DNA of 63,625 nt, the filler included, from Thraustochytrium aureum (lineage: Eukaryota), in assembly GCA_012862495.1 (NCBI GenBank). It is 5 parts of 3 records of this genome, joined end to end, with 100 filler letters (N's around TTAATTAATTAA, not from the genome) between each part and the next. Parts side by side here need not be neighbours in the genome. Positions count along the whole stretch, not along the records: positions 9,806 to 29,627 come from BLSG01000098.1; positions 29,728 to 55,985 come from BLSG01000098.1; 3 more parts are not named here. One strand, given 5' to 3'. This document shows, piece by piece, positions 9,750 to 42,036 of the stretch (position 1 is its first letter; every line of letters begins with the position of its first letter). The notes below the pieces were generated by a model. That model was not told where the DNA came from. It was given only the letters and a program-made list of their open reading frames with translations, and searched no databases. The position numbers and the translations under genes are program-made.

Positions 9750-9761
9750 TTAATTAATTAA
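9750..9761. other. Artificial six-frame-stop contig spacer
   Basis: TTAATTAATTAA flanked by N runs; identical at four sites. Confidence 0.95.
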
Positions 9762-9805
9762 NNNNNNNNNNNNNNNNNNNNNNNNNNNNNNNNNNNNNNN
9801 NNNNN

Positions 9806-12403: not shown

Positions 12404-12498
12404 GCCCTGACAGGCGCACTTTACGGCTCTGAACAGTGATTTCACACAAAAAATAACCTTGATACTGCACCGCTTGATCAAGAACGGGCACTGTAGAG

Positions 12499-15074
12499 CT
12501 AGTTCCCGCGCGAATCGATGCAGAAAAACACGTTGCGCCGCAGCATCGAGCAGCATATTTTGCGCTCGAGCTCTTGCTGGCGGTCTGCATCGTCTGCGTT
12601 GCCGCCGGCTTCGGCGTCGCTGTCGCTGTCGCTGCTGGCGGAGTCGGCACCCGCGACAATCAAATCGCCTCGGCCCTCCGCCTTTTCTGCAGCCGAGAGC
12701 AGGCGAGCAGTATAGCACCGGAAAAAGATGAAGTAGCAACACGGGTAGGCAAAGATGGCGAGGGCGACCCAGCCAAGGTCCTTGACAAGGCGCAGCGGGT
12801 CGCCTCCCAAGACCTCGTCGATCGAGTCGGAAACCTTGAACGTGACAAAGCACTGCGAACCAAAGAGCTGGAAGATGTAGCAAGACACAGTCATGCAGCC
12901 CGCGGACACAACGAGGAGACCTCGGTTGAGCTGGTCCAGCTGGCTCCAGTGCGTGATGCGCTCACGCAGCTTCTCGCGGTACTCGCTGGCGCGCTCCAGC
13001 TCGAGGACCTCCTGGTCGTCGTCCCACTGCTTGAGCTCCTCCTCGCGCTCGATGATGGTCTTGGCGATGAAGTGAATGGCAGCAAGCATAGCCGCTGACT
13101 GCACGACAAAGGCCGCCGCGAGCGACATCGTGCTGAGCGAGCCCCAGATGCCACCTTCGCTCGACCTGAGCAGCAGCGCGCCCGCCACAACGCAGGGGGC
13201 GATGAGGAAAAACACGGGCAGCGAGCCGTAAAGCATCGAGCCGAGCGGCAGCCGCAAGATGCCCGTGAGTACCGAGACGGGCCAGTCCGGCCCGCCGCAG
13301 AGGACCGATACCTTGCGCAGGCTCATGCCGGGCTGCAAGAGGATGAGGCGGATCGAGCGCGTCTCGACAGAGTTGACGGCCACGAGGCGGCGGATCCACA
13401 CTCTGTTGTAGGCGAACATCTCGCCGATGATTTTTGCTGGATCACGATAGCGCTCATTTTGAGGCCGAAGCAGATCGCCATCGTAAACGCGACCGCGCCC
13501 CAAAACGACATCAGGTCCTGCGCCGAGCTGACGAGGATGATGCCGCCGCTCACGTACACGGGCACGCCCGGGATGAACGGGTTGAGGAACATGAGCGTCC
13601 CGACGCCGATGAACACAAAGGTCGTCGCAGCAAGTGGGACTGTCAGCAGCTCGGCGTTGAGCCAGCTCAGGAACAGCGTGGTGACGCGCACCACGCCGAC
13701 CGACAGCAGAAAGAAGAAGAGGCCGAGCCAGATCACCTTGACGAAAACCGACGTCCAGTTCCAAGAGCGCATCTCCGCAAGGTACCGGGTTGCGCGCGCG
13801 GTGAAGAAGAGCTCGCGGTCCTCCGCGCTGAGCTTTTTCGTGCACGAAAAGTACTTTCGAGACAGCTGCGTGAGCACGCTGCACCCCAGGTACACGATAA
13901 AGAAAGGAGAAATAAGCATGAGCATGATGGCCTTGACCCAGTCCGAGGTCATCGCGCGCAGCATGCGGTTGCCAAGAGGCGTGTTGCCCAGCCCCTCCTG
14001 AATGGCGCCCGTTCCAAACACCGCCGCGACCACGACGCCCATCACGATCATGGCAACAAACGTGAGCGCAAGGATCACGTTTGTGAGGCTCATCTCTGCG
14101 CCGGCGATCCCTGCTGCGGCCCAGAGCCCGAACAGGCCCAATGCGACGAGCATCACAAACCCTTGCGCGAGCGGGTCCATGGCGTGCGCCTTGTCTTTGG
14201 CTTCGCGCGCCTGCTTGAGCGTGCGCACAAGGAAGAAGAGCACAGCAGCGAAAACGAACGACCAAAGCACGAGCACGAACGGCAAGAGCCAGAGCATGAA
14301 CGCCGCGGTGCATCCGACTACCTGGCTGTCCAGAGCGTCTCGGGCCTCAGACGACAGTGCGGAGAGGCCGACTTGGTCAACCGGGGCGCCCAAGGTGGCC
14401 TCTACGGCGGTGAGGTTGCAGTCCATGAGGCCATAAAACTCGATTTTCACGTCGAGGCCCCACCAGTGGTCCGTGCTGAGGATCCAAACCGGCCAGGCGG
14501 TCAGCGCGCCCACCCCAACAACCACTAGGGAGGCCTCGAGCGTGACGAGATAGCTTGCCACGTCAATGTGGTCGAACACGGTGGTCTTGATCAGCATCAG
14601 TACGAAGGGGCCGCCCAGCAGGAACAGGCCCACAGGCGCCACCACAAAGGCTTTGGTGGCCAATAGAGCGGCGGCACCAAACCCGAGCACGCTGAGCCCC
14701 ATCATCGCGACGGCGATCAGGCGCCACGGGCCGTGCCAGAACCGAACGTCCAGCACGAGGAGAGCAAAGGTGAACACCACGGCCGCCCCCAGCGCGTACA
14801 GGCAGTACTCGTACGAATCGGACAGCTTCTCGAATATCTGGTGCCCGCGGCACCACGGCAGGGCGCTAAATAGAAACAGAAACAGAATCGCGCCGCCGAT
14901 CACGACAGAGGCCACAATGGCGTGCTCCCACCAAGCGCCCTTGTCACGCACGCGGTCCGCGCTTTTCTTTGCGCTCTCGCCCTCGCTGCCATCTTCGATC
15001 GACGCGCTGGCGTTGATGCCGGCTATCGAGACGGTCTCGACGCCGCCCTCGTCCTCCGTGTTGGGCAGCGCCAT
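12499..15074 (-). CDS. Large polytopic membrane protein with a C-terminal DedA/VTT(SNARE-associated)-like region; frameshift near 13430
   Basis: More than 15 hydrophobic segments; motifs PFIPGVPVYVSGG and VSVLCGGPDWPVSVLTGILRL. Two ORFs join at an A homopolymer (QQK/IIGE). Confidence 0.7.
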
Positions 15075-15532
15075 GACACCCAGCCGCAGAGCCCTCCCTG
15101 TTCCTGCCGCGATGCCAGCTGCCGCCACGGATGGCTTCGCTTGCGCCAACGCGAGCTGTCCGGCAAAAGGCCTGCAAGCAGCGAGCGCCCAGCGCGCCGC
15201 ACTTGGCCGAGCAAGCAAGCGCCTTGGCACCAAAACCGCGAGCTGTGCGCAGCCCCGAAAGTCGCCGGAAGCCACAAGCCACAAGCCAGTGGCCGGAAGA
15301 CAATTGCGGAAGACAGCAACGATCGCCGGCAGCGCTCGTCGTTCGCGAGAGTCCCTTCGCGCCGCGTCCGCGTCAGACGACCAGCGTCGATCGGGGTCTG
15401 CCTGCCACACCTGTGCTCGGCTCGCGCCGTCCGAAGTTTACCGTTTCCCCGTCACGCCACCACCCTACATGACGCATCTCGGTCGTCACTGGGGATCTGA
15501 TGTGACGAGAGGTGTGCAGGGTGAGAGAGAGG

Positions 15533-16154
15533 GATGGTGGAGGATGCGCGCGGCGGAGGGGTTGGCAGGACGCCGGCGGCGTCCAGCTCGAGCGAGAGAG
15601 AGCCTCTGGTGAGACTGGTGCGTGGCGGCGACCGGTGTGAAGCCGCCATTCGGTTGCGCTTCGAGGCGCTCTTGCTTCCTGCGGGCGTCAAGTTCGCGTG
15701 GCGCCGGCGTCTTCGCTCCCGGGACATCGAACACCTTGCAAATCAAGTTGAAGAAGAAGAAGCGCGTCCAGCACGCGCAATGCACGGGCAATCTATCCCT
15801 CGGGGATGTTGCACATGGTGGCGAGCGACGATGGCGCGTTGGACAGAAGCCACTGGCAGCCAGCTGCCGCGCGGCGAGACGCAAATGAACCACCTCGTTC
15901 AGCGGCAACTCGGAAGCGAACTCGATTGTGGTTGTCTGCCAATCACTGATGACTACTCTACCATCAATGGCAGAGTGTCTGTGAGATTCTGCCAAGGAGG
16001 ATCCGACTTGTCTTGCCACAACCATCGAGCCCCCCGTCTGACACTGACACTGACACTGGCTCAGAGAGTCTGTGGAGTGCTGCTGCTCGCGCGAGTGGCC
16101 GTGTGCGCTTTGCCAACTCTGGTCCGCAATAGTCTAACAGAGGGGCGCTTCTGA
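15533..16154 (+). CDS. Possible uncharacterised ORF
   Basis: ATG-started open frame of about 200 aa with no recognisable motif. Confidence 0.2.
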
Positions 16155-20745: not shown

Positions 20746-23700
20746 CTAGTCGAACGCAAAAACCTCGCTATCGCGAAGCGGCGGCGGCAGGAACTCCTGC
20801 TGTATCATGCGCTCAAAGTAGACCTCATTCAGCGACTCGTAGGACGGGTACGGCCGCTCGCAAAGCAGCGTGCACTGAAAGTGCATCCGAACCGATTGGT
20901 CCACCGACGCGGCATCAAGCCCAAACATCGGCAGAACCGGATACAGCGCATTTGACTCCACGACATCGCCACTCGAGTCTGCCATGCGTCGCGCGTCACG
21001 CAAGGCCACCGAGGGGTCCTTGGCCCCCCGCAGAGTTCGTGCCTCATCGTCGCCGTCCCTTTCGTTCACGATGCCGCTCGCGAGCTTTTGCATCCCGTGT
21101 GCGGGCCGTGGTGTCCCTTTGCCGGCTCCGGCAATGGCGATCGAGCCGCTCGAGCGCACAGACGATATCCGCGACGAAGCCGAGAGCGTGCTGCCGCGTG
21201 CCTCGGCGCCAGGGCCGAGGACGAGGTCAGGAGCGAGGTCGCCCAAAACCCTGCCGTCAGCATCGCGGGCCTGGGACGGAGGCGGTCTTGGCGGCTTGGC
21301 CAAATGCCCCTCCACCGGTACCGCGTCCCGCAGCACCGAGTCGGCCGAATCGGCAAACTTGTCGGCTTTAGCCGCGCTCGACGGCACCCGGGTGGCGGCC
21401 TCGATCAGGCGCCGGCGCCACTCGCCGTACTCGACGAGCGGGCATCGATAGCCAAAGTCGGCGACCCAAGTAAAGTACTCCTCCAGGTAGATCGGGTCCG
21501 GGTTGCACATGTTGTAAGCGCGCCCAACGGCGTCAAGCGAGTCGTAGGACGTGCAGATCCGCAATATCGACTCGCACACCATATCGACAGGGTTCATGTC
21601 CATCACCCAGCCGAGTCGCGGCGCATGCCTGCAGCTGGATGCACCCCTTCAGAAACAAACACAAAAAGTCGCTCAGGCTGGCCATGCCCGTTTCCGAATG
21701 CCCAGTGATCCTGCCCGGCCGAAATACAACCGTCGGCACGCCACGTCGCTGCGCCTCCTGCACGAGAAACTCTGCCACCCACTTGGTTTGCGCGTAGCCT
21801 TCCATGTGCACAAGGTCCTCCGGTCGCGCGATGGGGCCTTGCTCCTCAAAGGCAACCTCGACGGGAGCTGCACCCATCGGCTTGGCTTGGCTTCCAGCAC
21901 TGTCGTGTGGTGGCGCAAAGACTGACAGCGTGGAGATGTGGACGAGCGTTGCGGGGTGGCCGTACCTACTAGACGCGAGCCGGATCACCTCCTTTGTACC
22001 CAACTCGTTGGCTGCACGGAGCCGCGAGTACGGGAACAGCGAGTGGACGTAGGCTCCGCCGTGGATAATCACCTCCGCAGCCTGTGCAAGGCGCTCGAAG
22101 GATGGCCCTGCGAGCCCAAGTCGCGGCAGCGCCAAGTCGCCTTGCACGACAAGAATCGTGAGCCCTGGCCCAGCGGACGCGGTGCCAGTCGCCGCGCCGC
22201 CCACACCAATCCCCACGCCGTCCGTTTCCCCATACGCGTCGAGCTCTGTCCAGCCTCGGATGCAAGGCATGAGCGCCTCGTCGAGCAACTCAAAACTATC
22301 CAGCGCCTCGCGCAGCCGTGCAACAGCCGCACCCTCCGACTTGGCTCGCACGAGGCAGAGAACAACAAGGTCAGCATGCTCCCCGGCCCGCCGTTCGAGC
22401 CGCGCATGGTACAGGTCCGCCAGGGCCCTGACGAGGAAAGCGCCTAGANNNNNNNNNNNNNNNNNNNNNNNNNNNNNNNNNNNNNNNNNNNNNNNNNNNN
22501 NNNNNNNNNNNNNNNNNNNNNNNNNNNNNNNNNNNNNNNNNNNNNNNNNNNNNNNNNNNNNNNNNNNNNNNNNNNNNNNNNNNNNNNNNNNNNNNNNNNN
22601 NNNNNNNNNNNNNNNNNNNNNNNNNNNNNNNNNNNNNNNNNNNNNNNNNNNNNNNNNNNNNNNNNNNNNNNNNNNNNNNNNNNNNNNNNNNNNNNNNNNN
22701 NNNNNNNNNNNNNNNNNNNNNNNNNNNNNNNNNNNNNNNNNNNNNNNNNNNNNNNNNNNNNNNNNNNNNNNNNNNNNNNNNNNNNNNNNNNNNNNNNNNN
22801 NNNNNNNNNNNNNNNNNNNNNNNNNNNNNNNNNNNNNNNNNNNNNNNNNNNNNNNNNNNNNNNNNNNNNNNNNNNNNNNNNNNNNNNNNNNNNNNNNNNN
22901 NNNNNNNNNNNNNNNNNNNCCCCCGAGGCGCCGCTCGCTAGTCGCTGCGCTGCAGCCACTTTGCTGGCCACGGCGGCCGCCATGCCAGCGACGGACGGGT
23001 CGCTGAAGAATCGCCCGATCGAAACCTCCACGTTGAACGTGTCGCGAACAAGCGACAAGAGCTGGGTCGCGGCAAGCGAGTGCCCGCCGAGGTCGAAAAA
23101 GTTGTCGTGGACTGAGATCTTCTCGAGCCCGAGCGTCTCCTTCCAGAGATCCGCCACGATCACCTCCTCGGCGGTTCGCGGCAGAACGACCGCGCTTGCA
23201 GCCCTGCCGCTCAGGTCGCTCGTTTCTGCAGTGGGAGGCGGCAGCGCCTTGCGGTCAACCTTGCCATTCGAGGTGAGCGGAAGCTGGTCCATAAACACCC
23301 ACGCGGCGGGAGCCATGTACGCAGGCAGCTTGTCTTTCACCAGCCCTTGCAACTCGTGCACACGCTCAACCTCAGAGTATGCGGCGGCTGCCTCCTCTGA
23401 TGCCTTGGCCCCCTCAGCCAGGACGACGTAAGCGCACAGGCGCTGCTGTCCCGGCCTGTCCTCGCGCGCCAGCACGCAGGCTTCAAGCACGGAAGGATGC
23501 TGCTTGATTACCGACTCGATCTCGCCAAGCTCGACGCGCATGCCGCGAATCTTGACCTGAAAGTCCACGCGGCCAATAAACTCAATGTTCCCGTCCCGGC
23601 GGTACCGCACGCGGTCCCCGGTTCGGTACAGCTTGGAGTGCAGGAGCGCGTCGTCCACCGCAAGCTCTCGCAGCGTTTCTGCCAGGCGCTCGGGGAGCTC

Positions 23701-26700
23701 AACAAACCGCTCAGCCGTCAGCTCTGGGCGCTGGTGGTAACCGCGCGCCAGCCCAGGGCCGGCAATGCAGAGCTCCCCAGGGACGAGGACGGGCGTGGGC
23801 TCCAAGTACTCGTCTAGCACAAAGGCATAGTAGTTGTACAGTGGCCGTCCAATGCAGGGCGAGAAGACCGTGTCGCCGGAAGCCCCTTGCCACGGTGGCG
23901 CCGCACCATGTGCTTTCGGCTTGCCGGCCCTGTGTTCGCATGCAGATGCCTCTGCCGCCTCCGCGCGCCTCCCTTCCGCCACAACGAAGTAGGTGCACAT
24001 AATAGTGCCCTCCGAGGGCCCGTAGTGGTTGTCCAGCCGGAAAGGGAGGTCGCGCAGGATTCGAACAGGGCACGTGCAGCTTGTCCCCTCCGCCATACAC
24101 GACGCGCAGCGAGCTGGGCCACGACTCGTGCCGCGACTTGAGGAAGACCTCAAGCAATGGCGTGGGCAAAAGCGACACGGAGACGCGCTGGTGGTGAAGC
24201 CACTCCGAGAGCGCAACCACATCACCCCGCGTCGAGCTGTCCACGATGTGAACAGACGCGCCGGCAGCAAGAAATGGCCAAATCTCGAGCCCGACGGGGT
24301 CAAAGGCGGCGCCAACGAGCTGGGAGGCGCGGTCGCTGGCAGTCAGCCCGTAGGCGTCAATGTGCCAGGCAACGACGTTGACCAAGGACCTGTGCTCGAT
24401 CAGCACCCCTTTGGGCTTGCCAGTGCTCCCGGACGTATAGATCATGTACGCAATNNNNNNNNNNNNNNNNNNNNNNNNNNNNNNNNNNNNNNNNNNNNNN
24501 NNNNNNNNNNNNNNNNNNNNNNNNNNNNNNNNNNNNNNNNNNNNNNNNNNNNNNNNNNNNNNNNNNNNNNNNNNNNNNNNNNNNNNNNNNNNNNNNNNNN
24601 NNNNNNNNNNNNNNNNNNNNNNNNNNNNNNNNNNNNNNNNNNNNNNNNNNNNNNNNNNNNNNNNNNNNNNNNNNNNNNNNNNNNNNNNNNNNNNNNNNNN
24701 NNNNNNNNNNNNNNNNNNNNNNNNNNNNNNNNNNNNNNNNNNNNNNNNNNNNNNNNNNNNNNNNNCTTGTTGTACTCCACGCTACCGCGGATTAGGGCCA
24801 CGAGGTGGCCCGCCATCAGCTCAATTGTCTCGCGCGAGAAGAGCGTGGTCTTGTACTGCATTGCCGCGCGCAGCGGGGCCCCTGACGTGCTGCCCTTGCT
24901 AAAGATCAGCTGGAGCTCGTAGGGGCTGGCGCGCTGCTCGATGCCGACCTGGCCTTCGCCATCGAACGCCTTGATCCTCGCCGAGGAACCCAGACGCACA
25001 GTCTCACCGGACTCGAGCCGCGCAAGCGACGGCGAAGCCAGCCCGGTCTCCCCGCCGCTTTGGCTCGACTCTGCAGAAAATGTCTGGTTTAGCGACAGGA
25101 GGACCTGGAAGAGCGGGCTCTGATGCGACTGCCGAAACGAGGACATGCGCTCGACCAGAATCGGGAAGGGAAGCTCTTGGTGCTCAAATGCGGACAGCAC
25201 CACAGCGCGAGCTTGGCACAGTAAGCTGCGAAAGTTGTCCTCCTTGCCCACGTGCATGCGCAGCACCACCACGTTGGTGACGTTCCCAACAGTGCGGTCG
25301 AGCTCCGGAATCGTCCTGCAGGCCATCGGGGCCCCGATCAAAATGTCCTCCTTGCCCGTGTACCGGTACAGCAGTGCCGCATAAAAGGCCAGGAGCGACA
25401 TGAACATCGTCGCACGCTCCAGCTTGACGACCGCCTGCAGCTGCGCAAACGCGTCCGCAGGAACATCAAAGTGGTACCAGGCGCCGTTTTGCTCCGGCTC
25501 CTTGTCGAGCCGCCCACGCTCAAAGTCGGTGGGCAGGCCAAGCATCGCTTCGTGACCCGCCAGCTGGCGCTGCCAAAAGTTCCACAGGCGGTTGCCCGCC
25601 GCCGAGCTCATTTCTTCTTTCTGGAGTCGCGCAAACTCGGCCATATTGATCGACCGCGCCTCGCCGGCCTTCAAGGGGACGCCCCCAGGCTCTGCATCCC
25701 CAGTCGTGCCAGCTGCGTCGTACAGTTCGCCCAGGTCCTCAAGCACAATGTCAAGCGACCAGCCGTCCATGGCGATGTGGTGCGCTGTGAGGAGCAGAAC
25801 GCACTCGCCGTGCTCGTCTAAATAGGCACGGGCGCGAAAGGGAGCGCATGCTTTGAGGTCCCAAGGGCGATGAAGCTCATTCTGGAGGACGCGAGTCAGA
25901 GCAGCGAGATCGTTCTTGGCGGCTTCGTCTGCCACAAAGTCGACAATTGCCGGCCCGCGCACCGGGGGCGACAACGGTGGTGAGTGGAGGGCGGAAATGC
26001 GCTTGCGGCCCCGAGACAGAGCCGGGTGAATCACCTGGTATGGAAGTCCGTTTTCCTCCCCATACGTCGTGCGGAGTGATTCATGGCGATCCACCAAAAG
26101 CTGAAGCGCGAGCTTGAGGCGCTCCAGCGAGAAGCCCGGGCTGTCCACAACCCGGACGCACACGTGCACGACAAAGTCGATCCGGTTTGGATTCATCTTG
26201 TGAAGAAACCACAGCGACTGTTGGTTGTACGACAGCACGCTAAGCACCGGCCGCTGGGCGTTTGGGCTCGTCTTTGATGCATGTCGTTGGCGCAGCGCGG
26301 CATGCAAGGTCGCGTCACCGGCAAGCCACATCGGGGAGTGGGCAAGCATAAGCGGCGAGGAGGACAGCGAGGGGTTCAAGCTGTCGTAGAGGCCGCCCCG
26401 CGAACTGCTCCTCAGGGAGCCCGCGAGTTGGCCACGACCGGCTGCGGGCGTCTCCAAACCCGCCTGGCGCCCGCGAAGGAGGCGCAACCTGTTGGACGCC
26501 GAAGCCAGCGACGAAGACCCAAGCGACTCCGAGTTCTCTGCGTCGGTGTCCGCCGAGGCGCCAGACTGCGGCGCACGATAGACCGGCGGTCCTGCAACCA
26601 CTCTGAGATACCGCTGTCGCGATAACTCGCGCTGACCATCGAGCTTGCGGCAAGCCTCACGCGGCTGGTGCTGCTGCCAGGGGTCGGCCGCCCGCTCGTC

Positions 26701-29700
26701 CCGGTCGACGACGCACCTGCGGCAGAGGTCGCCTCGGAGAACGTGTCGCCTGCCGTGCTCCCGGCGCCGGGAAGTGGCCGCTCGGGTTGGTTTCGCTTGT
26801 GCCTTGCGTGCGGCTTCCCAAAGCGCACGGTGCCCTCGATCGCGGGTTTTGCAAGAACTTGGACAGCGGCATGTCCACGCCAAACTCGTGCCTGATGCGG
26901 GCCATGATGCGCGCAGCGGAAAGCGAATGGCCGCCTTCCTCAAAGAAGTCATCGTTGGGGCTGAGCGAGGCGGCGTCGCGGTTTAGAGCCGCGGCGAAAA
27001 TTGCGCCAACTGCTTGCCCGGCATCTGAAGCGAATACGCGAGCTTTTAGGACCGCAGGCGGGGCCTCGGCCTCGTCTTGCTTTCGCGCAGCAACGATGGC
27101 GTCTGCGGACAAGCCCGGCGCCTTAGAGAGGCCGTCACCATGCTGGTGTTGCTGGCCAACCGGATGGGGCGGGGAGCGCGGTGCGGTCCACCTTGTGGTT
27201 GGACGTCAGCGGCAACTGCTCCATGGCCACAAACGCGCTTGGGACCATGAAACCCGGCAGTCGAGACTTTAGGAAGGCGCGGAGGTCTGCTGCTGTCGGC
27301 GCCGGCCCGCTCGATGAGGCGACAACATATGCGCCAAAACCTTGTCTGGGGCCGCGCCAGACGAACTGGCAGATCTGTCATCTNNNNNNNNNNNNNNNNN
27401 NNNNNNNNNNNNNNNNNNNNNNNNNNNNNNNNNNNNNNNNNNNNNNNNNNNNNNNNNNNNNNNNNNNNNNNNNNNNNNNNNNNNNNNNNNNNNNNNNNNN
27501 NNNNNNNNNNNNNNNNNNNNNNNNNNNNNNNNNNNNNNNNNNNNNNNNNNNNNNNNNNNNNNNNNNNNNNNNNNNNNNNNNNNNNNNNNNNNNNNNNNNN
27601 NNNNNNNNNNNNNNNNNNNNNNNNNNNNNNNNNNNNNNNNNNNNNNNNNNNNNNNNNNNNNNNNNNNNNNNNNNNNNNNNNNNNNNNNNNNNNNNNNNNN
27701 NNNNNNNNNNNNNNNNNNNNNNNNNNNNNNNNNNNNNNNNNNNNNNNNNNNNNNNNNNNNNNNNNNNNNNNNNNNNNNNNNNNNNNNNNNNNNNNNNNNN
27801 NNNNNNNNNNNNNNNNNNNNNNNNNNNNNNNNNNNNNNNNNNNNNNNNNNNNNNNNNNNNNNNNNNNNNNNNNNNNNNNNNNNNNNNNNNNNNNNNNNNN
27901 NNNNNNNNNNNNNNNNNNNNNNNNNNNNNNNNNNNNNNNNNNNNNNNNNNNNNNNNNNNNNNNNNNNNNNATAGATTACGTAAGCCAGGGTGGCAGGGTC
28001 CTGCGGGGTTTTGGGGGCAGCAGGGCGCGAGCTCGCGAGTGAAATTGCCTCGTCCCAGTCCTCATCCAACAAAATGGTGCGCCCAGAAAACTCGGGTGGT
28101 ACAAGCGGGCGCAGCGCCGCCTCTGTGAGGATTGTTGAGGCTTCGGCGTCCTCTATCATCACGCGCACACGCGCCACGGGGTACTTTGGGTCCATCGGCA
28201 TCACAGCTGCGCCGACTTTGAGGACAGCGAGCCACGCCACGACGAGCGCGGTGCTCCGGGAAACGAGAACTGGCACCGGAGTCTCCGCTTTCACGCCCGT
28301 GAACCGCAGAAAGTTCGCCAGCCTGTTCGAGCGCTCGTCTAGCTCGCGGTACGTGAGCGAGGCATCTGGGCATTGCACGGCGACGCGATCTGGGCAGAGC
28401 GAGGCTTGTCGTTCAACGAGGTGGTGCACGCACGCGCCCGCGGCCCATTCCGCGAGGTCCTCCTTGGTCTCGTTGAACCCGTCCACGACGCGGTGACGCT
28501 CCTCGGCTGTCAGAGGCGAGAGGTCAACCACGCGCGTCTTGTCTGGCTTGCAGATTGCCAGGGCCTCGATAACATTAACGAGGTGCCCAGCCATCTTCTT
28601 GGCCGTCGCGGGCTCGAAGATGTCCGAGCTGTACTGCAAGGAGCCGCTGACGCGGTTGTTCTCGACGCAAACCATGAGCGTCAGGTCGAACTGGGCGTGG
28701 CGGTGCGGCGTAGCGACGGACCGAACCGCAGTGCCCTGCATGCTGGGGTGAAGGTGCAGCTCGACGCCGTCAAAGCCAAGCATGCTTTCGACGAGGCCAG
28801 GTCGGGATAAGTGCGGGCGCTGCAACACGAAGGCCACGTTGAAGAGCGGATTTTCGCCCACCGAGCCCGAGTTGCCGGCAGCGAGCCTTTCCACGAGATA
28901 CGGGAACGGGAGCGACTGGTTGTCGAGTCCGTTGAGCATGCTAGTGGCCACGCGGTGCAGGAGCTGGATCACGGTGGGGTTGCCGCTCAGGTCCGTGCTG
29001 ATCACGATGGGGTTGACGAAGTACCCGAACAGCTGCTCGAGCTCCTGCGTCGAGCGCCCTGCCGCTGGGACGCCTACGTGGACCCGGTCGCTTCCCGTGT
29101 AAATACGCAGAAGCGAACTGAAGGCCGCCAAGAGCAGTACGTTGAGCGTGAAGCCCGTATTTTGGCTCAGCGCAATGATCGAACGCGCCGTCTCCCCATC
29201 AACCCTGAAGAGCTCGGCGCCGCCGCGATATGACTTGCGCGGTGGACGCGGTTTGTCGAGCGGGAGCTCAAGCGCAGAGGGCAGCCCAGAAAGTTGCGCC
29301 CGCCAGAACTCGAGCATCCGCGAGCATCGCGGCCCGCGCACAAGGGCCCGCTGGCGATGAATGTGGCGCGCATATGCACCAGGGTCCTCACCTTGTGCGG
29401 CTCCATCGTAGTAGGCCGCGAAGAGGCGGTCAAGTAGCAAGACCAACGACCAGAGGTCGACGACGATGTGGTGCACGACGATGAGCAAAATTTGATCTCC
29501 TGAGGCTCGATCGATGGCCAAACGAACGCGTAAGAGAGGGCCCCGCGCAAAGTCAAAGGGGCGGTATGTCTCTTTTTCCAGCCAGTCTTTGACAGCATTC
29601 ACGTCGTCAGCGTCGCCGCCTAGAACCNNNNNNNNNNNNNNNNNNNNNNNNNNNNNNNNNNNNNNNNNNNNTTAATTAATTAANNNNNNNNNNNNNNNNN

Positions 29701-32249
29701 NNNNNNNNNNNNNNNNNNNNNNNNNNNGTAGATGGTGTAGGCCAGCGAGTGAGGCCCTGGCCCGGATCCCTCCTCGCCATCCGCCGGCGCTGGCCGGTGC
29801 AGTGGCGCTTTACTCCCGAGGCTGATCGCGCGGTCCCAGTCACGATCCACGAGGATGCGGCGCACTTGGCGCGGGGGCGTGATTCCTGCGCAGAGGTGCG
29901 CAAGCGACTTCTCCGAAATGACCAGCGTTGCGTTCGCGTCCTCTATCATAACACGCACACGCTCTGCGGGAAACTTTGGGTCCATCGGCATCACCGCGCC
30001 GCCGGCCTTCAAGACCGCGAGCCACGAGATGACCAAGAAGACGCCGCGCGTCAACAACACCGGTACAGGCTGCTCCCTTTTGACGCCGACGAGCTCGAGG
30101 AAGTGTGCGAGCTGGTTCGCCTTGGCGTCGAGGTCGGCGTACGAGAGGAGTTGGAGGCCCCCATCGATCGAAATCGCAGGCGCGTCTGGATTGAGAAGGG
30201 CTTGGCGCTCTACGAGCTCGTGAACGCAGAGGTCGCGCGATTCAGGAGGAAAGTGCATCTCGGATGCGTTGAAGTTCTCGACGACAATGGCCTCTTCCGC
30301 GCGGGGCATAATGCGAAGCTGGGAGATCTGCACGGAGGCGGCCTTTTCAAGGCCAGCGGGACCCTGTCCAGCAGGTGCGCTAGGTTTGGGCTGTGGGTAG
30401 CTGTCGAGGATGGACGCGAGAACGCTTTGCAGGTGGAGGGCCATTCGCTGCATCGTCCGCGCGCGAAACCGGTCGGTTCGGTACTGCAGCGCGATGCGAA
30501 GCAGCGGCGACGTGGTTCCTATGAGGCGAATGTCCTCGTCCCCGACCGCGTATCTGAGCGGAAGGTGGACCGGAGTGAGCTCGACACCGCCCAAGGTCAG
30601 CGGTTTGGTCTTGAGGGAGGCAAATGCCTGCTCATCCTCCTTGGAGGGCGCTACGCTCACGGACGCGGACGCGGGCGGTGGTGGGCCTTCGGCTTGACCA
30701 GCGATCGCATACCCGCTTCCCGCGCTTGCATTGGAGGAGAGCGACTTGGCCCCGGTCCTAAAGGCGGGCCGGTGCGCAAGAGGGAGGTCCGGCAGCAAGT
30801 TGGGCATGTCTGGGTGTGCAGACAAGGAGCTCCCCAGCTCGACCGCCAAAAGCTGCTCCACAGCTCGAGACGAGCTGCTCGATCGCGGGAGCGCCTCAAG
30901 GCCGAGCACGTACCGCAAGAGTCGCGTTGTCACGAGCGGGAATGCGAGGTCGTCAACAGTGCTGCCGTAGACCTCGAACGCGGCCTGAAAGAGCTGGCTG
31001 CAGCCAAGCTGGCTTTTGAGGTCGTCCAAGGCGATGTCTGGGTTTGCCTCGGCGTCAGAAAGCATGCTGCCGACTCGATTAAGGAAAGCGTCAACGGCAG
31101 GGTGGTCTGCCGTCTGCACGCGCACCGGGAGCCAGTTCTCGAAGGCGCCGACGACGTTTTTCACCTCGACATGGCTGCCGCGACCCGGTGTGTGGCACCC
31201 GACGATGACGTCTGCTTCGCCAGTGTACCGCGCGAGGAGGATATTGAAGGCCGAGAGGAGCACCACGCGCAGCGACACGTGGTGCGCAAGACTAAAGTGG
31301 CGAAGCCTATCGCAGAGGTCACCGTCCAGAGGAATGTCGCAAAGGGCGACCTGGTTTGGCGGCGCGTGATCCGCGCCAAGGGCGCCAGGCGAATTCCCTG
31401 GTTCGCCCGCCTGGGGCATCAGCGGCATGCCTTGATCCGGCGGCAGCTCTGGCTGCGGGAGGGGCTTGGATAGCGCCGTTTGCCAGAAGGCGAGCTGGCG
31501 CACGTGGACGTCGTTGGGGCCTTGGAGGTGGGCCTTCCACTGCTGGTACTCGTCGAATTGGATTTCCAGTGCAGGCAGCGCAAACTCGCTCGTGGCCTCG
31601 TACACGACTTTGACGTCCGATAGAAGGAGGCAAAGCGAGAGGGGGTCCGCCAGGCTGCGGCGTGCAGCGATGACGAGCAAGTNNNNNNNNNNNNNNNNNN
31701 NNNNNNNNNNNNNNNNNNNNNNNNNNNNNNNNNNNNNNNNNNNNNNNNNNNNNNNNNNNNNNNNNNNNNNNNNNNNNNNNNNNNNNNNNNNNNNNNNNNN
31801 NNNNNNNNNNNNNNNNNNNNNNNNNNNNNNNNNNNNNNNNNNNNNNNNNNNNNNNNNNNNNNNNNNNNNNNNNNNNNNNNNNNNNNNNNNNNNNNNNNNN
31901 NNNNNNNNNNNNNNNNNNNNNNNNNNNNNNNNNNNNNNNNNNNNNNNNNNNNNNNNNNNNNNNNNNNNNNNNNNNNNNNNNNNNNNNNNNNNNNNNNNNN
32001 NNNNNNNNNNNNNNNNNNNNNNNNNNNNNNNNNNNNNNNNNNNNNNNNNNNNNNNNNNNNNNNNNNNNNNNNNNNNNNNNNNNNNNNNNNNNNNNNNNNN
32101 NNNNNNNNNNNNNNNNNNNNNNNNNNNNNNNNNNNNNNNNNNNNNNNNNNNNNNNNNNNNNNNNNNNNNNNNNNNNNNNNNNNNNNNNNNNNNNNNNNAA
32201 ACCCAGCGACATTTCCCGCCAGATGGCCATCATCCGTCTGTCTATCCAT
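20746..32249 (-). CDS. Multimodular non-ribosomal peptide synthetase, C*-A-[gap]-C-A-T-C-A-T-R; several gaps and frameshifts; start uncertain (candidate ATG 32249)
   Basis: C motifs RRSLADPLS (degenerate), HHIVVDLWS and HHIAMDGWS. A motifs LSYADL/LTYREL, YTSGSTGKPKG, NHYGPSE, GELCIAGPGLARGY, YRTGD, GRVDFQVKIRGMRVELGEIE, NGKVDR and NHKVDR. T motifs FFEEGGHSL and FFDLGGHSL. Terminal reductase motifs LGAFL, GDLALPRLGL, GYAQTKWVAE and FRPGRITG. Confidence 0.93.
29672..29683. other. Artificial six-frame-stop contig spacer inside the NRPS
   Basis: TTAATTAATTAA in an N run; the length of missing sequence is unknown. Confidence 0.95.
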
Positions 32250-32589: not shown

Positions 32590-33729
32590 TCAGAGTTCGC
32601 TGGAGAAGGTCACCTGAGACGGGGCCTCCACCGCGATGGTCGAGTCGGCGCCCACGAAGAGCTCGTTGCTCAGGTAGGTGAGCACGCCGGCGTTGGTCAG
32701 ATTGTAGAGCGACTTGACGCTCGAGTAGACCTGGGCGAACGAGGCGTAGCGGCCCAGCACGCCCTCCATGAACGCGTTGGCGCTGCGGACCGTGACGTCC
32801 GAGTTGGCCTGCGCCGTGTCGAGCCGGGTGGCGCGCTCCTGCTCCGCCTGGGCCAAGAGCGTGTTCGCCTTGGTGAGAGCCTGCTGGCGCTCGTTGTTGG
32901 CCAGGCGAATGTCGCTGCGCGCGTTCTCCTTCTCCTTGACCACATCTTCGTACTGGACGGGGCGGTCGATGTTGCGGAGCTGGAACTGGGCCACCTTGGA
33001 CTGAAAGCGCGACTCCAGCTGCGAAGAGACGTCGCGGCGCATCGCTTCCGACACGTCGCTCCGGTTGGTCTGGAACTCCTCGGCAGTAAAGTCGCCGCAG
33101 ACGTGCGTCACCGTCGACGCCGCCTGGGTCATGAGCATCGTCTCGTAGTTGGAAAAGTTTTGGTACGCCAGGGTCAGCTCGCGCAAGCTCTCCGACACGG
33201 CGACAAACTGGAACGAGATATCAAGCTTGATCAAGAGGCCGTCCTGCGAGTTGCACTGGAGGCTCTTGTCGTTCTCGAACGAGACTGTCGTGTACTTTGC
33301 GGGCCAGAGCACTGTCGTGCCAAAGGTCGGCTTGGTCTGCAGCCCTTGCTGGAGGGCCTCCGTCCCGAGCTTGGCTTGGACCGAGTTGTAGGTGAGGCCC
33401 GTGTCGGTGGGGTCCACTGTGGTTAGGGATCCGGCGACGACGGCGATGATGATGCCCACGACCGAGACGACCAGGACGACGCAAAACCCCGGCATGAAAT
33501 CGTCCAAGCACACTTTCTTCATCTCGTCTGATTCGGAGGTCCTGTTGGACCTTTTCGTTTTGCCCTTCGAGGCGCAGAAGCGCGGCAGGCACCCGTCGTC
33601 CGCCATTTTCTTCTTGCTGTCTACTGGCCTGGTGTACAGCGAGTTGCCGTTCGCGCCGCCAGCCCCCGCCTCCGCGTCTTCTTCCTCGATGATCAAGTTG
33701 CCCTGTTTGTCTTTGCCGCCGGCGAGCAT
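32590..33729 (-). CDS. SPFH/Band-7 (prohibitin-domain) membrane protein
   Basis: Single TM, then CNSQDGLLIKLDISFQF, VCGDFTAEEFQTNR and FQLRNIDRP, followed by an Ala/Glu-rich coiled coil. Confidence 0.85.
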   Translation of the reverse strand: MLAGGKDKQGNLIIEEEDAEAGAGGANGNSLYTRPVDSKKKMADDGCLPRFCASKGKTKRSNRTSESDEMKKVCLDDFMPGFCVVLVVSVVGIIIAVVAGSLTTVDPTDTGLTYNSVQAKLGTEALQQGLQTKPTFGTTVLWPAKYTTVSFENDKSLQCNSQDGLLIKLDISFQFVAVSESLRELTLAYQNFSNYETMLMTQAASTVTHVCGDFTAEEFQTNRSDVSEAMRRDVSSQLESRFQSKVAQFQLRNIDRPVQYEDVVKEKENARSDIRLANNERQQALTKANTLLAQAEQERATRLDTAQANSDVTVRSANAFMEGVLGRYASFAQVYSSVKSLYNLTNAGVLTYLSNELFVGADSTIAVEAPSQVTFSSEL

Positions 33730-35271
33730 GTCTGTTACCGCGCAGGCGCTCAGCGGAAGTGGTACTGCTTGAGCAGGTCGGGTCCACCACGCGCAAAGGC
33801 GGTCTTCGCCGCGGCTCGTGGCCTCGGGTCAGCTGCAACTCGATCAGTCGGCGGTCGTGGCGAGAAGGATTGGCGTTCGCCGCTGAGGCCTCAGCGGCGA
33901 GGTGAGTGATTTCAAGGGTCGCGGTTGTCCAAGAGGCGTTCGTGCGAGGCCGCACTTCCTCGCGTCTCTCGGCGTTACCGGCCACGCGCTGCACGAGCTA
34001 TCCCAGACTCGCGCGAGTGCGAGCGGGCAAGATCATTCCATGAATGCCCCCCGGAACGCCGAGCCGTCGGCGTGTGGGAAAGGCCGGTCGAGCAGAGTGA
34101 TGGCAGTGCGCACCACTGGCAGCCAGCCGTCCGAGTAGAGGTACTTCGGTACCGGCTGGCGTGCGTTGACTCGTCGGGGTCCCAGCCAGGCTCATCAACT
34201 GCCAGTGATCGCCGTGTGTGGCCAAGCAATCCTCCTTGGGGCGAGTACCTCTAGCAAGTGGGTTGCCTCCTCCGGACACCACTCGGGGCGGACGACCCTC
34301 TATCAGGCGCACGGGCGCGTGCTGGAAAGCGTTTGAGCGCCAGAGGTTTCCGATCACGAACGCCGCGGCGTTCGCCTCCGCCCGCTCCGTGTTCGTGCTC
34401 CAAAGTCCGAGCAGGTTTGCTTGTCCAGCGCGTTTGATTCGAGCGACGAGCGCGCGAGGCTGCCGCGTTGTTGGTCCAGTGCCTGTCGCCGACAGCGCGA
34501 GTCCGCGAGAAGCGGTCGCGAACGAACGCCCCACCCTGACTCGCTCTCTAGAGAGCTAGCTCGAGTTGTCGAGCAGACCGACCTGGGCGAGGNNNNNNNN
34601 NNNNNNNNNNNNNNNNNNNNNNNNNNNNNNNNNNNNNNNNNNNNNNNNNNNNNNNNNNNNNNNNNNNNNNNNNNNNNNNNNNNNNNNNNNNNNNNNNNNN
34701 NNNNNNNNNNNNNNNNNNNNNNNNNNNNNNNNNNNNNNNNNNNNNNNNNNNNNNNNNNNNNNNNNNNNNNNNNNNNNNNNNNNNNNNNNNNNNNNNNNNN
34801 NNNNNNNNNNNNNNNNNNNNNNNNNNNNNNNNNNNNNNNNNNNNNNNNNNNNNNNNNNNNNNNNNNNNNNNNNNNNNNNNNNNNNNNNNNNNNNNNNNNN
34901 NNNNNNNNNNNNNNNNNNNNNNNNNNNNNNNNNNNNNNNNNNNNNNNNNNNNNNNNNNNNNNNNNNNNNNNNNNNNNNNNNNNNNNNNNNNNNNNNNNNN
35001 NNNNNNNNNNNNNNNNNNNNNNNNNNNNNNNNNNNNNNNNNNNNNNNNNNNNNNNTCGTTCGGCCGGGTTGCGGGGCGCGCGGGGATCGGTCGGCCGAGC
35101 TGCGAGCGCGGTTGGTGTTTTTCTTCGCTCGGCATCGCGACATTGTGGATCGATCGTTCTGGTCGCGCGGGATCCTGGCCAAGGCGCTGACCTCGCCGCG
35201 GGCCTGACGGGGCTCTGGCTGCTCAGGCTGGCCACGGTGCTCGAGCCCTGGTTGGCGCGTACGCCAACGCC

Positions 35272-36795: not shown

Positions 36796-38444
36796 TCACC
36801 CGCTCGCCACGAGCTTGGACCAGATTTCACTACTTGCCGAGACCGTGCCGCCGACGCCAAGCATCACGCCGCCGACGATGATGGCTACGTCGAGTCCCTT
36901 TTGGGCTCGCGAGATCTGCCCACAGATTTTCAGGTGAAAGTAGGCGGGCAGGACAAGCGCGAGCAAGGCACAGGCCCCCGCCCCGACGAGCGAGATAAAG
37001 TCGCCAAAGTTGGGAATCCCAAGGGCAATCACCACAGAGAACACCACCGTGGTGATACGGGCCACGTTTTTCATCCACATGGGGCGGCCCGCGAGGCGCT
37101 GCGAGGCCTCGAGGATCTGAGAGAGAGAGAGAGAGTGAGTGAGAGAGAGAGAGATGCACCGCCCCGGCGTCTCATCGTCAGCATAAAATTGGTGCGCAGA
37201 TTCGGGCGGGCCAAACCAAGGCAAACAAGGCTTGCACGCTAGGCCGCGATGCAGCGCGCCCACATGGGCTAGAAACGTACCGTGAACACCGGGAACATCA
37301 TAAGCGGGTAGGTGAAGAAGAGGCCCACGCTGAGCGCCACCTTGACGATTTTCGTGGGCAGCCCGAGGCCAAGGTTTAGCGTGATGATCTCCTTGGTCTC
37401 GCTCCCGTAAGCCATGTATCCGAGCAAGCCAAACACAGCGTAGACGAGCGTGACGAGCACCATCGTGAAGCCCAGCACGACGCGAAAGTTCTGCTTGTTT
37501 TGCATCGACTCTTGGATGGGCAGGATCACGCCCACGCCCTCGTAGCAGTAGATGGAAACGCCGAAAAAGTAGGGCAGCTGGTTCGCAAGTACGCCAAAGT
37601 TGACCTTGTCCAGCGGGTGGTCCATGTGCTCCTCGTGCTCCTGAAAGATCTCCACGTCGTACGACATGACAACCAACATGCCGATGATGTTGGCCACGTC
37701 GGCAACGAGCGCAAAAGGGGACAGGTTCTTGATGTGCCGGTAGAGAACGAGCAAGGAGAGGCCTGGGATGCAGATGGCCACAAAGCCCTGATTGCTCACC
37801 ATCGGCGCAACGGTGTGCATGTTCTCGCCGATGAAAAGCAGATATGCACAGCAAAACGAGACCTGCGTGATTATCAAGAGGCTGTCGACTATTGCGGACC
37901 CCTTCGGACCGAGCACGCCGAACCCGATGTCGCCAAACCCGCGCACGAGCTTGCCCTCTTTCTGCAGGGCCACCTTGCAGTCCACGAGCAGCATCATCGC
38001 GTACGTGGCGGCAAAGCCCACGAACGGCAGCACCATCAATGCTCCCAAGAGGCCGACCTTCATGAACGCATAAGGCAATCCGAGGACGCCAGCGCCTACG
38101 AATGAAATAAACATGTGCGCCGCGGTTGACCTGTCCGAGTTGAGGTTTTCACTCCCAGTTCCAAGCAAGTCGCCCAACTTGGACGGGTCGCCCACGTCGT
38201 CGTCCAGGTCAAACTCGATATCAGCCCCGGGTTCCATGTCGTCGTGGCTCGATGCTTCATCAGACGCGCTCCTACCAAGGTCGCCGTGCGCAAGGGCCCC
38301 TCGCAGCGGCCCGAGGTGGACCTCCGCGAGGCCTTTCCTCGACGTCAGGCTCATCTCGACTTCCTTCCCGTCTTCGCGCGAATCGCGGCCGCCTAGCAGG
38401 CGCAGTGGCGGCGCCTCGCGCTCGTTTCCCTCGCCCCCCGCCAC
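36796..38444 (-). CDS. Amino acid/auxin permease (AAAP; SLC36/AVT-like) transporter; intron 37117-37280; start uncertain (ATG 38354)
   Basis: FVGAGVLGLPYAF, FFGVSIYCYEGVGVILPI and FFTYPLMMFPV, then PNFGDFISLVGA after a GTACGT...CAG intron with a (CT)n tract. Confidence 0.9.
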
Positions 38445-40544: not shown

Positions 40545-42036
40545 ATGAACGACACCACAGACATAGAGTCCTTCAAGGACACGCTCTTCGAGCCGTGGGG
40601 GGGCTTCCAAGGTACGTGCGCCGAAATCGCGCTTGGGCCTCGCTTGCCGCTTCTTGCTTCGCGTCGCGCTACTCGGTTTGCTCGCCAAGCTAACGCCGGC
40701 CGTCACCCGTCCAGCTTGCAACACCACAGCCGACTGCGTCCTGAGCGAAAACGATCCAAGCTTCCTTGCGACGTGTGTCCTGTTTGGCAAGGGCGTGCCG
40801 GCCTGGGTGGAGGAAGGGCAGTTCTGCTCATGCAACATCGCGTACGGCCGCGTCGGGCTCGGGTGTGCCGGTGTCACAAGTGTGTCGCTTCCATTGGGTT
40901 TGGTCTTGATTCTTCCGCTTTCCATTGGCTTGTACACGCTTTTCTTCCTATCTCGCGTCATCGTGAGGGCCCTGAGGCAGGGGCTATTGACCAGCGGCGC
41001 CGCTTCTACGACCATTTTCACTGCCCTTTTCGTCAACATACTCACCATCGCCTGGATCGTTGTCCGCATGGGACTGTACTTTGTAAGTCTCGCTCGGTTT
41101 TCGGCAGCGGCTGCGCATCGCAGCGCCTACTGACAATGACAATGGGACACTCTCGCAGGGAGCGGGTCCGTTTGTATACGAGCTCAACCTTGTCCTTGCT
41201 TCCACGGTTGGCGCCGCGCTCGCGGGGCTGCAGCTCGTCGTCACTCTAGTCTTTCAAAAGGTGCTGGCCAGCACAAAGAAGATGAAGAAGGGAGGTGGCT
41301 CGATCGAACGCAAGGACGTGCTTTTCGTTTCGATCAGCTGCTTCATCATTACCGCGTCTGTTCTTAGCCTGATGCTCATTGGGCAGATNNNNNNNNNNNN
41401 NNNNNNNNNNNNNNNNNNNNNNNNNNNNNNNNNNNNNNNNNNNNNNNNNNNNNNNNNNNNNNNNNNNNNNNNNNNNNNNNNNNNNNNNNNNNNNNNNNNN
41501 NNNNNNNNNNNNNNNNNNNNNNNNNNNNNNNNNNNNNNNNNNNNNNNNNNNNNNNNNNNNNNNNNNNNNNNNNNNNNNNNNNNNNNNNNNNNNNNNNNNN
41601 NNNNNNNNNNNNNNNNNNNNNNNNNNNNNNNGCCCTGTACATGAAAGCCGCGAACGACATGAAGGGCCTCATTTCCAAGAGCACGCAGTCCTCCCCCAGT
41701 GGGTCTGGAGCAAAGGAACGTGGAAACGCAGCAATCAGCCGGATCCAGCGATGCATTCGGCGCGTCATTCTCTTCATCTGCACATTCGTGCCCTCGGCGT
41801 TGGTATACTCTGTCACCTCTACTGACCTCAAGTCCTCGTCCGTCACGCCGTCCTCAGTGGCATCACTTGGTCTCGGGATGATGCAGGTAACAGGGGCAGT
41901 CGTCATTTATTCCATCAGCGAGTACTCGGCAGGCCCACTTCTGTCCAAGCTTAAGATTCGCGGGAGCAACGGCCTTGGCAGCGTAGCGCCGTCCTCCGCT
42001 GTCACTGCTGCCTCTTCGGCCAAGTACGAGGCTTAA
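40545..42036 (+). CDS. Multi-pass membrane protein with Cys-rich N-terminus; introns 40612-40714 and 41083-41158; internal gap
   Basis: Removing the GTACGT..CAG and GTAAGT..CAG introns (branch points GCTAAC and ACTGAC) gives a continuous frame FQACNTTADC...CSCNIAYG...C followed by hydrophobic helices. Confidence 0.7.

What the first reader, a model, noticed from the sequence alone, without database searches (positions are those of the whole stretch)
20746..32249. Multimodular, reductase-terminated NRPS in a protist-like genome
Seen: at least three C domains, three A domains, two T domains (GGHSL) and a terminal SDR-type thioester reductase on one strand. No spliceosomal intron is evident in the sequenced parts, although neighbouring genes have introns. 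Established: R domains release products as aldehydes or alcohols, or via cyclic imines or pyrazinones, and multimodular NRPSs are mainly described from bacteria and fungi. Inference: a cryptic pathway for a short reduced peptide, probably with an uncharacterised product and possibly of bacterial origin. No epimerase, TE or PPTase is visible in the window.
Basis: partly seen in the sequence, partly recalled or inferred. Interest (0 to 1): 0.92.

Follow-up and report, generated by a model that had tools for sequence, protein, structure and literature searches.

The report
Ancient protist tripeptide assembly line
This marine protist carries a transcribed three-module peptide-building enzyme, broken only by sequencing errors and gaps, that belongs to a family shared with distantly related protists and likely makes a still unknown three-amino-acid molecule ending in an aldehyde or alcohol.

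Summary
The minus strand at 20746 to about 32200 encodes one NRPS, C*-A-(T)-C-A-T-C-A-T-R; T1 lies in a gap. The eight one-base frameshifts are assembly errors: contigs of two studies lack them, correcting them opens all five segments, 28 of 39 strain differences are synonymous, and a spliced-RNA run covers the gene. It is not a bacterial contaminant. Collinear relatives occur in Hondaea fermentalgiana, Bigelowiella natans, an MMETSP transcript and several unnamed contigs. Their A1/A2 and A3 domains each form one clade inside a bacterial Leu-type family. The substrate pockets (DAAF[YF]GI[VI]N; DPLLYGH[VI]x) match none of about 1,730 other A domains examined. The first C domain lacks its catalytic His in 9 of 9 copies (Arg in 7). 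Best reading: an old, mostly vertically inherited synthetase of bacterial ancestry that builds an unacylated hydrophobic X-X-Y tripeptide and releases it reductively. The same domain order was noted in 2015 for Bigelowiella and Aureococcus, with no product. I found no paper on the thraustochytrid gene, the orthology or the pockets. Product and function remain untested.

The parts
31683..32249 (-). 5' end of the NRPS gene; the start codon is unresolved (in the 516-N gap or at an ATG pair near 32232)
   Evidence: A loose end of run X2 at 31682 continues in frame and, read by hand, resembles P0121 just before residue 93.
30390..31682 (-). C1*, a condensation-fold domain with RRxxxDP in place of HHxxxDG
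   Evidence: PF00668 E 6e-29; aligned to the TycC motif; family alignment
29728..30210 (-). A1, N-terminal half (the pocket lies in the gap)
   Evidence: PF00501; collinear with P0121
29628..29727 (.). Artificial 100-base contig join with a six-frame stop linker; hides the A1 core, T1 and the start of C2 (about 1.8 kb by the ortholog)
   Evidence: not bridged by any contig laid
28550..29627 (-). C2, motif HHIVVDLW
   Evidence: PF00668 E 4e-56
27140..28414 (-). A2 (core in the gap 27384-27970; A10 motif present)
   Evidence: PF00501 and PF13193; loose ends of X1 continue it on both sides
26790..27015 (-). T2 carrier domain, GGHSL
   Evidence: PF00550 E 3e-15
26300..26790 (-). T2-C3 linker with the family motif SY(R/K)DSxISEWL
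24766..26240 (-). C3, canonical HHIAMDGW
   Evidence: PF00668 E 4e-64
23250..24765 (-). A3, pocket DPLLYGHIM; its N-terminal part is in a gap that one RNA contig bridges with 648 bases (216 codons, in frame)
22969..23157 (-). T3 carrier domain, GGHSL
   Evidence: PF00550 E 1e-15
20746..22448 (-). Terminal SDR-type thioester reductase with Thr (ISTLSV) and YxxxK (GYAQTK); the Rossmann motif lies in the gap 22449-22919
   Evidence: PF07993 and TIGR01746; closest solved structure is the MxaA R domain, E 1e-40; motifs

Best explanation
The gene is a transcribed trimodular NRPS, intact apart from assembly errors, from a likely thraustochytrid, and it is predicted to build a hydrophobic X-X-Y tripeptide and release it reductively as an aldehyde or alcohol. 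Shown: the domain order, transcription, purifying selection, orthology to Hondaea and Bigelowiella proteins, and loss of the catalytic His in C1. Inferred steps: A1 and A2 load the same aliphatic or larger hydrophobic residue on T1 and T2 (their pockets are read from orthologs, because they fall in gaps here). C2 and C3 make the two peptide bonds. A3 adds a different residue. The R domain uses NAD(P)H to cleave the T3 thioester. C1 is likely a non-catalytic support or docking domain, so the N-terminus would stay unacylated by this enzyme. A PPTase encoded elsewhere would prime the carriers. The gene likely arose once, by triplication of a bacterial C-A(Leu-type)-T module plus an R domain, in an early protist lineage, and has been inherited mostly vertically. 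The most likely role is a secreted protease-inhibitor-like or signalling peptide, which is untested.
For: Eight one-base indels in the window are absent from runs X1 and X2 of two studies. Correcting them leaves 0 internal stops in 5 of 5 segments, each collinear with P0121. The neighbouring DnaJ gene has the same kind of error. 28 of 39 listed substitutions are synonymous against 25% expected, p 2e-9 (10 more rows were not shown). X1, X3 and X6 skip a GT-AG intron that DNA run X2 keeps, X1 has no cover at 38675-41388, and X1 contigs cover nearly all sequenced parts of the NRPS. Relatives with the same domain order, complete or partial: P0121, P0242, P0283, P0386 (Hondaea), P0387/L002, P0390, P0417 (Bigelowiella), P0406, P0491, L001, L004, L005. 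14 of 17 A1/A2 pockets read DAAF[YF]GI[VI]N and 8 of 10 A3 pockets read DPLLYGH[VI]x; the best outside match among 1,756 A domains extracted is 6 of 9 for DAAFYGIVN, 7 of 9 for the variant DAAFFGIIN, and 5 of 9 for the A3 pocket. A1/A2 (99) and A3 (98-99) are each one clade inside the DAWFLG[NHQ]VV family; one clade for all 29 is not rejected (p-AU 0.62). All family C domains fall in one clade (99) with bacterial HHIxxD[FL]WS domains. The A1/A2 motif has 0 matches in the prokaryote genome collection and 0 in viral contigs. His-to-Arg also marks the X domain and the lovastatin CON domain (PMC6260248, passages).
Against: No product or enzyme assay exists. The A1 and A2 pockets and T1 are not sequenced in this window, and no contig bridges 29628-29727. 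The pockets match no code I could cite (0 papers), so the residues are a guess. A2 and A3 pockets differ in the Bigelowiella-type proteins and A2 differs in P0390, so the product is not identical across the family. Some C domains keep activity without the second His (PMC10510592, passages), so C1 is not proven dead. The trees are quick LG+G4 trees with SH-aLRT only; the careful tree did not finish. R-domain monophyly has support 49. Few fungal or other eukaryotic NRPSs were in the comparison set. Only two relatives carry an organism name.
Confidence: 0.6

Rival explanations
1. C1 is an active starter domain with a non-canonical Arg active site, and the product is an N-acylated (lipo)tripeptide aldehyde of the leupeptin or fellutamide type.
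For: The Asp of the motif is kept in 9 of 9 C1 copies and a basic residue replaces the His in 8 of 9. The closest bacterial C domains sit about 700 residues into proteins carrying PF23024, which I recall as typical of fatty acyl-AMP-ligase loading modules (P0017, P0108, P0191). The second His is dispensable in some C domains. Thraustochytrids are rich in acyl donors (own knowledge).
Against: The same His-to-Arg change occurs in the X domain, listed as catalytically inactive. C1 has the longest branches of the three C groups. One copy has Asp at that site (L005). No acyl ligase or acyltransferase is conserved next to the gene.
Confidence: 0.25
2. The family spread among protists by several independent transfers (bacteria to protist, or protist to protist such as stramenopile to chlorarachniophyte) rather than by descent from a deep common ancestor.
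For: The distribution is patchy: NRPSs were found in 7 of 32 algae (PMC4661987). GC3 is 0.76, at the low end of nine neighbours (0.76-0.91). The gene has no introns in the sequenced parts. A1/A2 and A3 did not join in the free trees.
Against: The same split (Bigelowiella-type versus thraustochytrid-type, with P0390 and L005 between or beside) recurs in the A1/2, A3, C2, C3 and R trees. A linker motif and the C-terminal tail are shared. No prokaryote genome holds the A1/A2 motif. Holding all A domains together raises the likelihood by 6.8. This excludes repeated bacterial gains better than it excludes one protist-to-protist transfer.
Confidence: 0.3
3. The locus is a decaying pseudogene, a chimeric assembly or bacterial contamination.
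For: The assembly shows eight indels and five gaps, one an unbridged artificial join.
Against: The indels are absent from independent runs, selection is purifying, transcripts cover the gene, the flanks are eukaryotic genes with GC similar to the NRPS, and it is collinear with full-length eukaryotic orthologs at 40-64% identity for the three compared segment by segment (P0121, P0242: 40-64%; P0283: 32-57%).
Confidence: 0.03

Closest known systems
10-domain NRPS of Bigelowiella natans (490 kDa) and Aureococcus anophagefferens (460 kDa), noted in PMC4661987; the B. natans protein is discussed again in PMC7073580
   Same: Same (C-A-T)3-R order. P0417 (4453 aa, B. natans) groups with this gene in the A1/2 and A3 trees and shares the linker motif and tail, so it is an ortholog by my trees.
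   Different: Product unknown there too. A2 and A3 pockets differ (DAAFFGNIG, DPLQSGHII). The papers' passages give no pocket conservation, C1 degeneracy or thraustochytrid member. PMC7073580 reads an epimerase and tentative Cys selectivity into the B. natans three-module NRPS; I saw no E domain in P0417. The Aureococcus protein was not retrieved or tested.
Hondaea fermentalgiana GBG31706.1 (annotated as an ACV synthetase, fused to chorismate mutase in its gene model)
   Same: Collinear ortholog; A3 is 73% identical over 350 columns; same pockets and RRxxDP-type C1.
   Different: The public name is a mislabel: ACV synthetases end in E-TE (own knowledge), this ends in R. The chorismate mutase part is a separate gene in the window (46148-47503, + strand).
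Reductase-terminated bacterial NRPSs: myxalamid MxaA, linear gramicidin LgrD, myxochelin MxcG, aureusimine AusA, nostocyclopeptide synthetase
   Same: SDR-type R domain with the Thr/Tyr/Lys triad; MxaA is the closest solved R; LgrD-type Leu A domains are among the nearest A domains.
   Different: Different module number, pockets and C subtype. No fragment reached the curated cut-offs of the AusA or MxcG models, though only fragments were scored.
Tripeptide aldehyde protease and proteasome inhibitors (leupeptin, fellutamide B); recalled, not tested
   Same: Three residues, hydrophobic X-X-Y pattern, reductive release.
   Different: Those are N-acylated; here the starter C lacks its catalytic His and no acyl donor gene is conserved nearby.
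Glycopeptide X domain and lovastatin CON domain (HRxxxD)
   Same: Second His replaced by Arg (PMC6260248).
   Different: Those lie at or near the C-terminus; C1 here is N-terminal and groups with the enzyme's own C3 (support 93), so the change is convergent.

Membership tests
Multimodular NRPS | Repeated C-A-T modules in one reading frame | tested here: met
   T1 is seen only in orthologs
Multimodular NRPS | Elongation C domains with HHxxxD | tested here: met
   C2 HHIVVDL, C3 HHIAMDG
Multimodular NRPS | A domains with Asp235 and the A10 Lys (amino-acid activation) | tested here: met
   A3 FDP and NGK, A2 NHK; A1/A2 Asp seen in orthologs only
R-terminated NRPS | SDR reductase with Rossmann motif and Thr/Ser-Tyr-Lys | tested here: met
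   the Rossmann motif is seen in orthologs and in a read loose end
R-terminated NRPS | Two-electron (aldehyde) versus four-electron (alcohol) release | not testable with these tools
   Needs an assay
Lipopeptide NRPS with a starter C domain | N-terminal C domain with an intact HHxxxDG motif | tested here: not met
   His absent in 9 of 9 C1 copies
Bigelowiella/Aureococcus-type trimodular NRPS-R | (C-A-T)3-R order and domain-by-domain orthology to the B. natans protein | tested here: met
   A1/2 and A3 clades 98-99; C2 clade 89; C3 not one clade and R support 49
Bigelowiella/Aureococcus-type trimodular NRPS-R | Orthology to the Aureococcus protein (JGI 70689) | not tested
   Not among the hits listed by my searches
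ACV synthetase (public label of the Hondaea ortholog) | Terminal epimerase and thioesterase (recalled) | tested here: not met
   Ends in NAD_binding_4; no thioesterase hit
Pyrazinone synthetase (AusA type) | Two modules, A-T-C-A-T-R | tested here: not met
   Three modules in full-length orthologs

The most novel reading that the evidence does not exclude
A single NRPS was acquired before stramenopiles and Rhizaria split and has been kept ever since with nearly fixed substrate pockets. It makes a conserved reduced tripeptide with a core physiological role (a life-cycle or cell-to-cell signal, or an endogenous protease regulator), making it a pan-SAR nonribosomal peptide pathway. Its His-to-Arg first domain docks an unknown partner enzyme.
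Probability: 0.25. Interest if true: 0.85.

Novelty: new variant of a known kind. Interest (0 to 1): 0.62.

Why it matters
The papers I read describe NRPSs as rare in algae and their products as unknown. This locus ties a synthetase noticed only as a domain cartoon in two algae to a wider protist family with unmatched substrate pockets and a conserved degenerate first domain. It also places a transcribed copy in a likely thraustochytrid, a group that is grown industrially and can be transformed (own knowledge). That makes the question of what protist NRPSs make directly testable by knockout and LC-MS, and could yield a new peptide aldehyde or alcohol and new A-domain codes.

Tried and rejected
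No whole genome is held for this window, so paralogs, a PPTase and copy number could not be searched. A search with the C3 region returned only bacterial multi-module proteins in its top 120, because many-domain proteins crowd the ranking; the R-domain region worked. Chorismate mutase as a cluster partner: it lies 14 kb from the gene here and is fused to the Hondaea model, but the flanks held for L001, L002 and L005 carry other, unrelated genes, so I treat it as local synteny between two thraustochytrids. Introns as the cause of the frameshifts: rejected, they are one-base indels. Expression differences: X1 covers the gene almost fully, X3 in fragments, and X6 not at 29728-31682, while all three cover the neighbours. 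X1 was chosen for holding the gene and contigs cannot rank expression, so this is not used as evidence. The run index listed no holder on record as RNA; RNA status was inferred from splicing. The careful tree did not finish. A search for the pocket strings in papers found none, including for two bacterial codes, so it has little power. Earlier findings of the scan: three look-ups, nothing. No structure or complex prediction was run, because a fold would not decide substrate or C1 activity.
Full report
Observation. The minus strand from 31682 down to the stop at 20746 holds five sequenced segments separated by N gaps. Pfam assigns C, A (N-half); C, A (N-half); A (C-terminal part), T, C; A, T; and an SDR reductase, with TIGR01746 for the last. 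A search with the C2-A2 segment found an MMETSP protein at 49% identity among otherwise prokaryote-type hits at 32-41%. Its cluster holds a 4130-aa member, P0121, with three C, three A, three T and one R domain. The window segments map onto it in order. The join at 29628-29727 is an artificial 100-base spacer with a six-frame stop linker; by the ortholog it hides about 590 residues.

Is the gene intact? The assembly changes frame several times. Contigs of runs X1 and X2, from two studies, differ from the window by one base at eight places (21625, 24067, 26568, 26794, 26818, 26842, 27158/27160, 27333). Applying these leaves no internal stop in 5 of 5 segments and extends the matches to P0121. 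One X1 contig bridges the 311-N gap with 648 bases, a whole number of codons. The neighbouring DnaJ gene shows the same kind of error at 35540 and 36088. Of the 39 substitutions listed inside the coding region, 28 are synonymous, 11 are not and none makes a stop; 25% synonymous is expected by chance (p 2e-9; one search left 10 further rows unshown). The frameshifts are therefore assembly errors and the frame is under selection.

Is it transcribed? The run index only guessed that X1, X3 and X6 are RNA. All three skip the stretch 37111-37280 with six letters between, which fits a GT-AG intron at 37117-37280 seen in the sequence; DNA run X2 keeps it, and X1 has no cover at 38675-41388 where X2 has cover in 6 of 7 bins. 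X1 contigs cover nearly all sequenced parts of the NRPS. No contig spans the whole gene or the artificial join.

Host and context. The flanks are eukaryotic housekeeping genes (flavodoxin/FAD-binding reductase, BET bromodomain, TANGO2, MFS, Band 7, DnaJ, amino-acid transporter, chorismate mutase, SET, Ras-family GTPase, Slx4, 150 of 163 stretches scanned). The chorismate mutase is 61.5% identical to that of Hondaea fermentalgiana, so the host is likely a thraustochytrid. NRPS GC is 0.64 and GC3 0.76, against 0.58-0.66 and 0.76-0.91 for nine neighbours.

The family. A C1 search of 1.84 billion representatives ranked P0002/P0121 and P0242 first and gave P0283. An R-domain search added Hondaea GBG31706.1 (P0386), P0387, P0390, P0406, P0491 and Bigelowiella natans P0417. 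An exact DNA motif for the A1/A2 site gave 6 metagenome loci, 0 in the genomes of 185,579 prokaryote species and 0 in viral contigs; five of the six loci carry it in a clear family ORF, two of them from one contig. Only the Hondaea and Bigelowiella proteins carry an organism name; I infer that the others are eukaryotic from their grouping. Family members share a T2-C3 linker motif and a similar C-terminal tail.

Pockets. Signature positions were read by alignment anchors (numbering recalled). The method returned familiar bacterial codes such as DFWNIGMVH, DILQLGMIW and DAWFLGNVV, which I recall as Thr, Gly and Leu. 14 of 17 A1/A2 domains read DAAF[YF]GI[VI]N; the exceptions are A2 of P0390, P0417 and P0406. 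8 of 10 A3 domains read DPLLYGH[VI]x, including the window's; P0417 and P0406 read DPLQSGHII, and P0491, recognised later, reads DPLFSGMII. Among 1,756 A domains extracted, the best outside match was 6 of 9 for DAAFYGIVN, 7 of 9 for DAAFFGIIN and 5 of 9 for the A3 pocket. The window's own A1 and A2 pockets lie in gaps. The top outside hit of all 28 family A domains has a DAWFLG[NHQ]VV code, and the nearest solved A domains are those of LgrA and McyB. A hydrophobic substrate is therefore likely. The Trp-to-Ala change at the pocket floor may admit a longer side chain (inference).

C and R domains. C2 reads HHxxxDLW and C3 HHxxxDGW (NH in P0390). C1 has lost the second His in 9 of 9 copies (Arg 7, Lys 1, Asp 1) and keeps the Asp; the Bigelowiella model did not align there. 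The same His-to-Arg change is described for the X domain and the lovastatin CON domain (PMC6260248, passages). A review lists the X domain as catalytically inactive but notes that some C domains work without this His (PMC10510592, passages). The R domain keeps Thr and YxxxK and is closest to MxaA among solved structures. Sequence cannot tell aldehyde from alcohol.

Trees. These are quick IQ-TREE LG+G4 trees with SH-aLRT only, built from family domains, their nearest hits and a random sample of distant codes; near-duplicate cluster members were dropped, and two partial C rows (P0417 C1, L004) were left out. A1/A2 form one clade (99) and A3 another (98-99), both inside the bacterial Leu-type group (100). 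Holding all 29 together is not rejected and scores 6.8 log units higher (p-AU 0.62), which is compatible with, but does not show, triplication of one module. All family C domains lie in a clade (99) with bacterial HHIxxD[FL]WS domains; C1 is one clade (99), C2 one (89), C3 is split. The R domains form one side of a weak branch (49). The window always groups with Hondaea, P0121, P0242, P0283 and P0387 (98-100). Fungal and animal NRPSs were barely sampled, so the bacterial placement holds only relative to what the searches returned.

What is in print. PMC4661987 (passages and section 5) reports a 490-kDa, 10-domain NRPS in B. natans and a protein with the same arrangement in Aureococcus, and says algal products are almost all unknown; P0417 fits that size. 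PMC7073580 (passages) mentions the B. natans three-module NRPS with a tentative Cys call, and a tripeptide-type NRPS in Cyanophora. PMC6050695 (passages; one supplement searched with 0 hits) says antiSMASH detected NRPS clusters in thraustochytrid genomes but gives no description in what I saw; its image supplements could not be read. PMC10366177 (passages) counts nine NRPS genes in a pelagophyte without detail in those passages; its supplements were not read. An Aurantiochytrium PPTase paper (PMC7457351) was seen in a listing only. Nine searches found no paper describing this gene, its orthology, its pockets or its product. The library lacks most subscription journals.

Verdict. This is a real, transcribed, selected trimodular NRPS with reductive release. 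It belongs to an orphan protist family whose domain order was noted once in two algae. New here, as far as I could find, are the thraustochytrid members, the orthology, the unmatched pockets and the degenerate first C domain. The product is most likely an unacylated hydrophobic X-X-Y tripeptide aldehyde or alcohol (0.6); an acylated product is the main rival (0.25). Interest 0.62; new variant of a known kind.

Noticed in passing
window 46148-47512 (+): Chorismate mutase with a weak prephenate-dehydratase-like C-terminal part; its Hondaea ortholog is fused to the NRPS in the public gene model GBG31706.1, probably a gene-calling merge of adjacent genes.
   Followed up: partly
window 9706-9805, 29628-29727, 55986-56085, 61827-61926: Four 100-base spacers (44 N, 12 bases, 44 N); the one inspected holds a six-frame stop linker. 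They mark artificial contig joins of unknown true length, so gene order across them is not proven.
   Followed up: partly
window 35540 and 36088 (DnaJ gene): One-base assembly errors split the DnaJ frame; other split ORFs in this assembly are likely errors too.
   Followed up: yes
L005 1-1233 (-) and 1590-9272 (+): A C1-like domain (Asp at the catalytic His site) points away from an A-T-C-A-T-R ORF: the family gene may be split into two divergent genes or inverted in this contig.
   Followed up: partly
L002 13580-13590: The metagenome ortholog is broken by one frame change inside A1, which is why P0387 lacks C1.
   Followed up: partly
P0242 residues about 4090-4684: The NCBI model carries a leucine carboxyl methyltransferase domain and a weak TIR-like hit after the R domain, probably merged neighbouring genes; a real methyltransferase fusion is not excluded.
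   Followed up: no
window 32593-33828 (-): A Band 7/SPFH gene lies head-to-tail just upstream of the NRPS and is covered by all three RNA runs.
   Followed up: no
window 9906-15612: Long A-skewed stop-free stretches with no Pfam hit, possibly a large coiled-coil or repeat protein.
   Followed up: no
window 61929-63623 (-): Pectinacetylesterase-family (Notum-like) gene.
   Followed up: no
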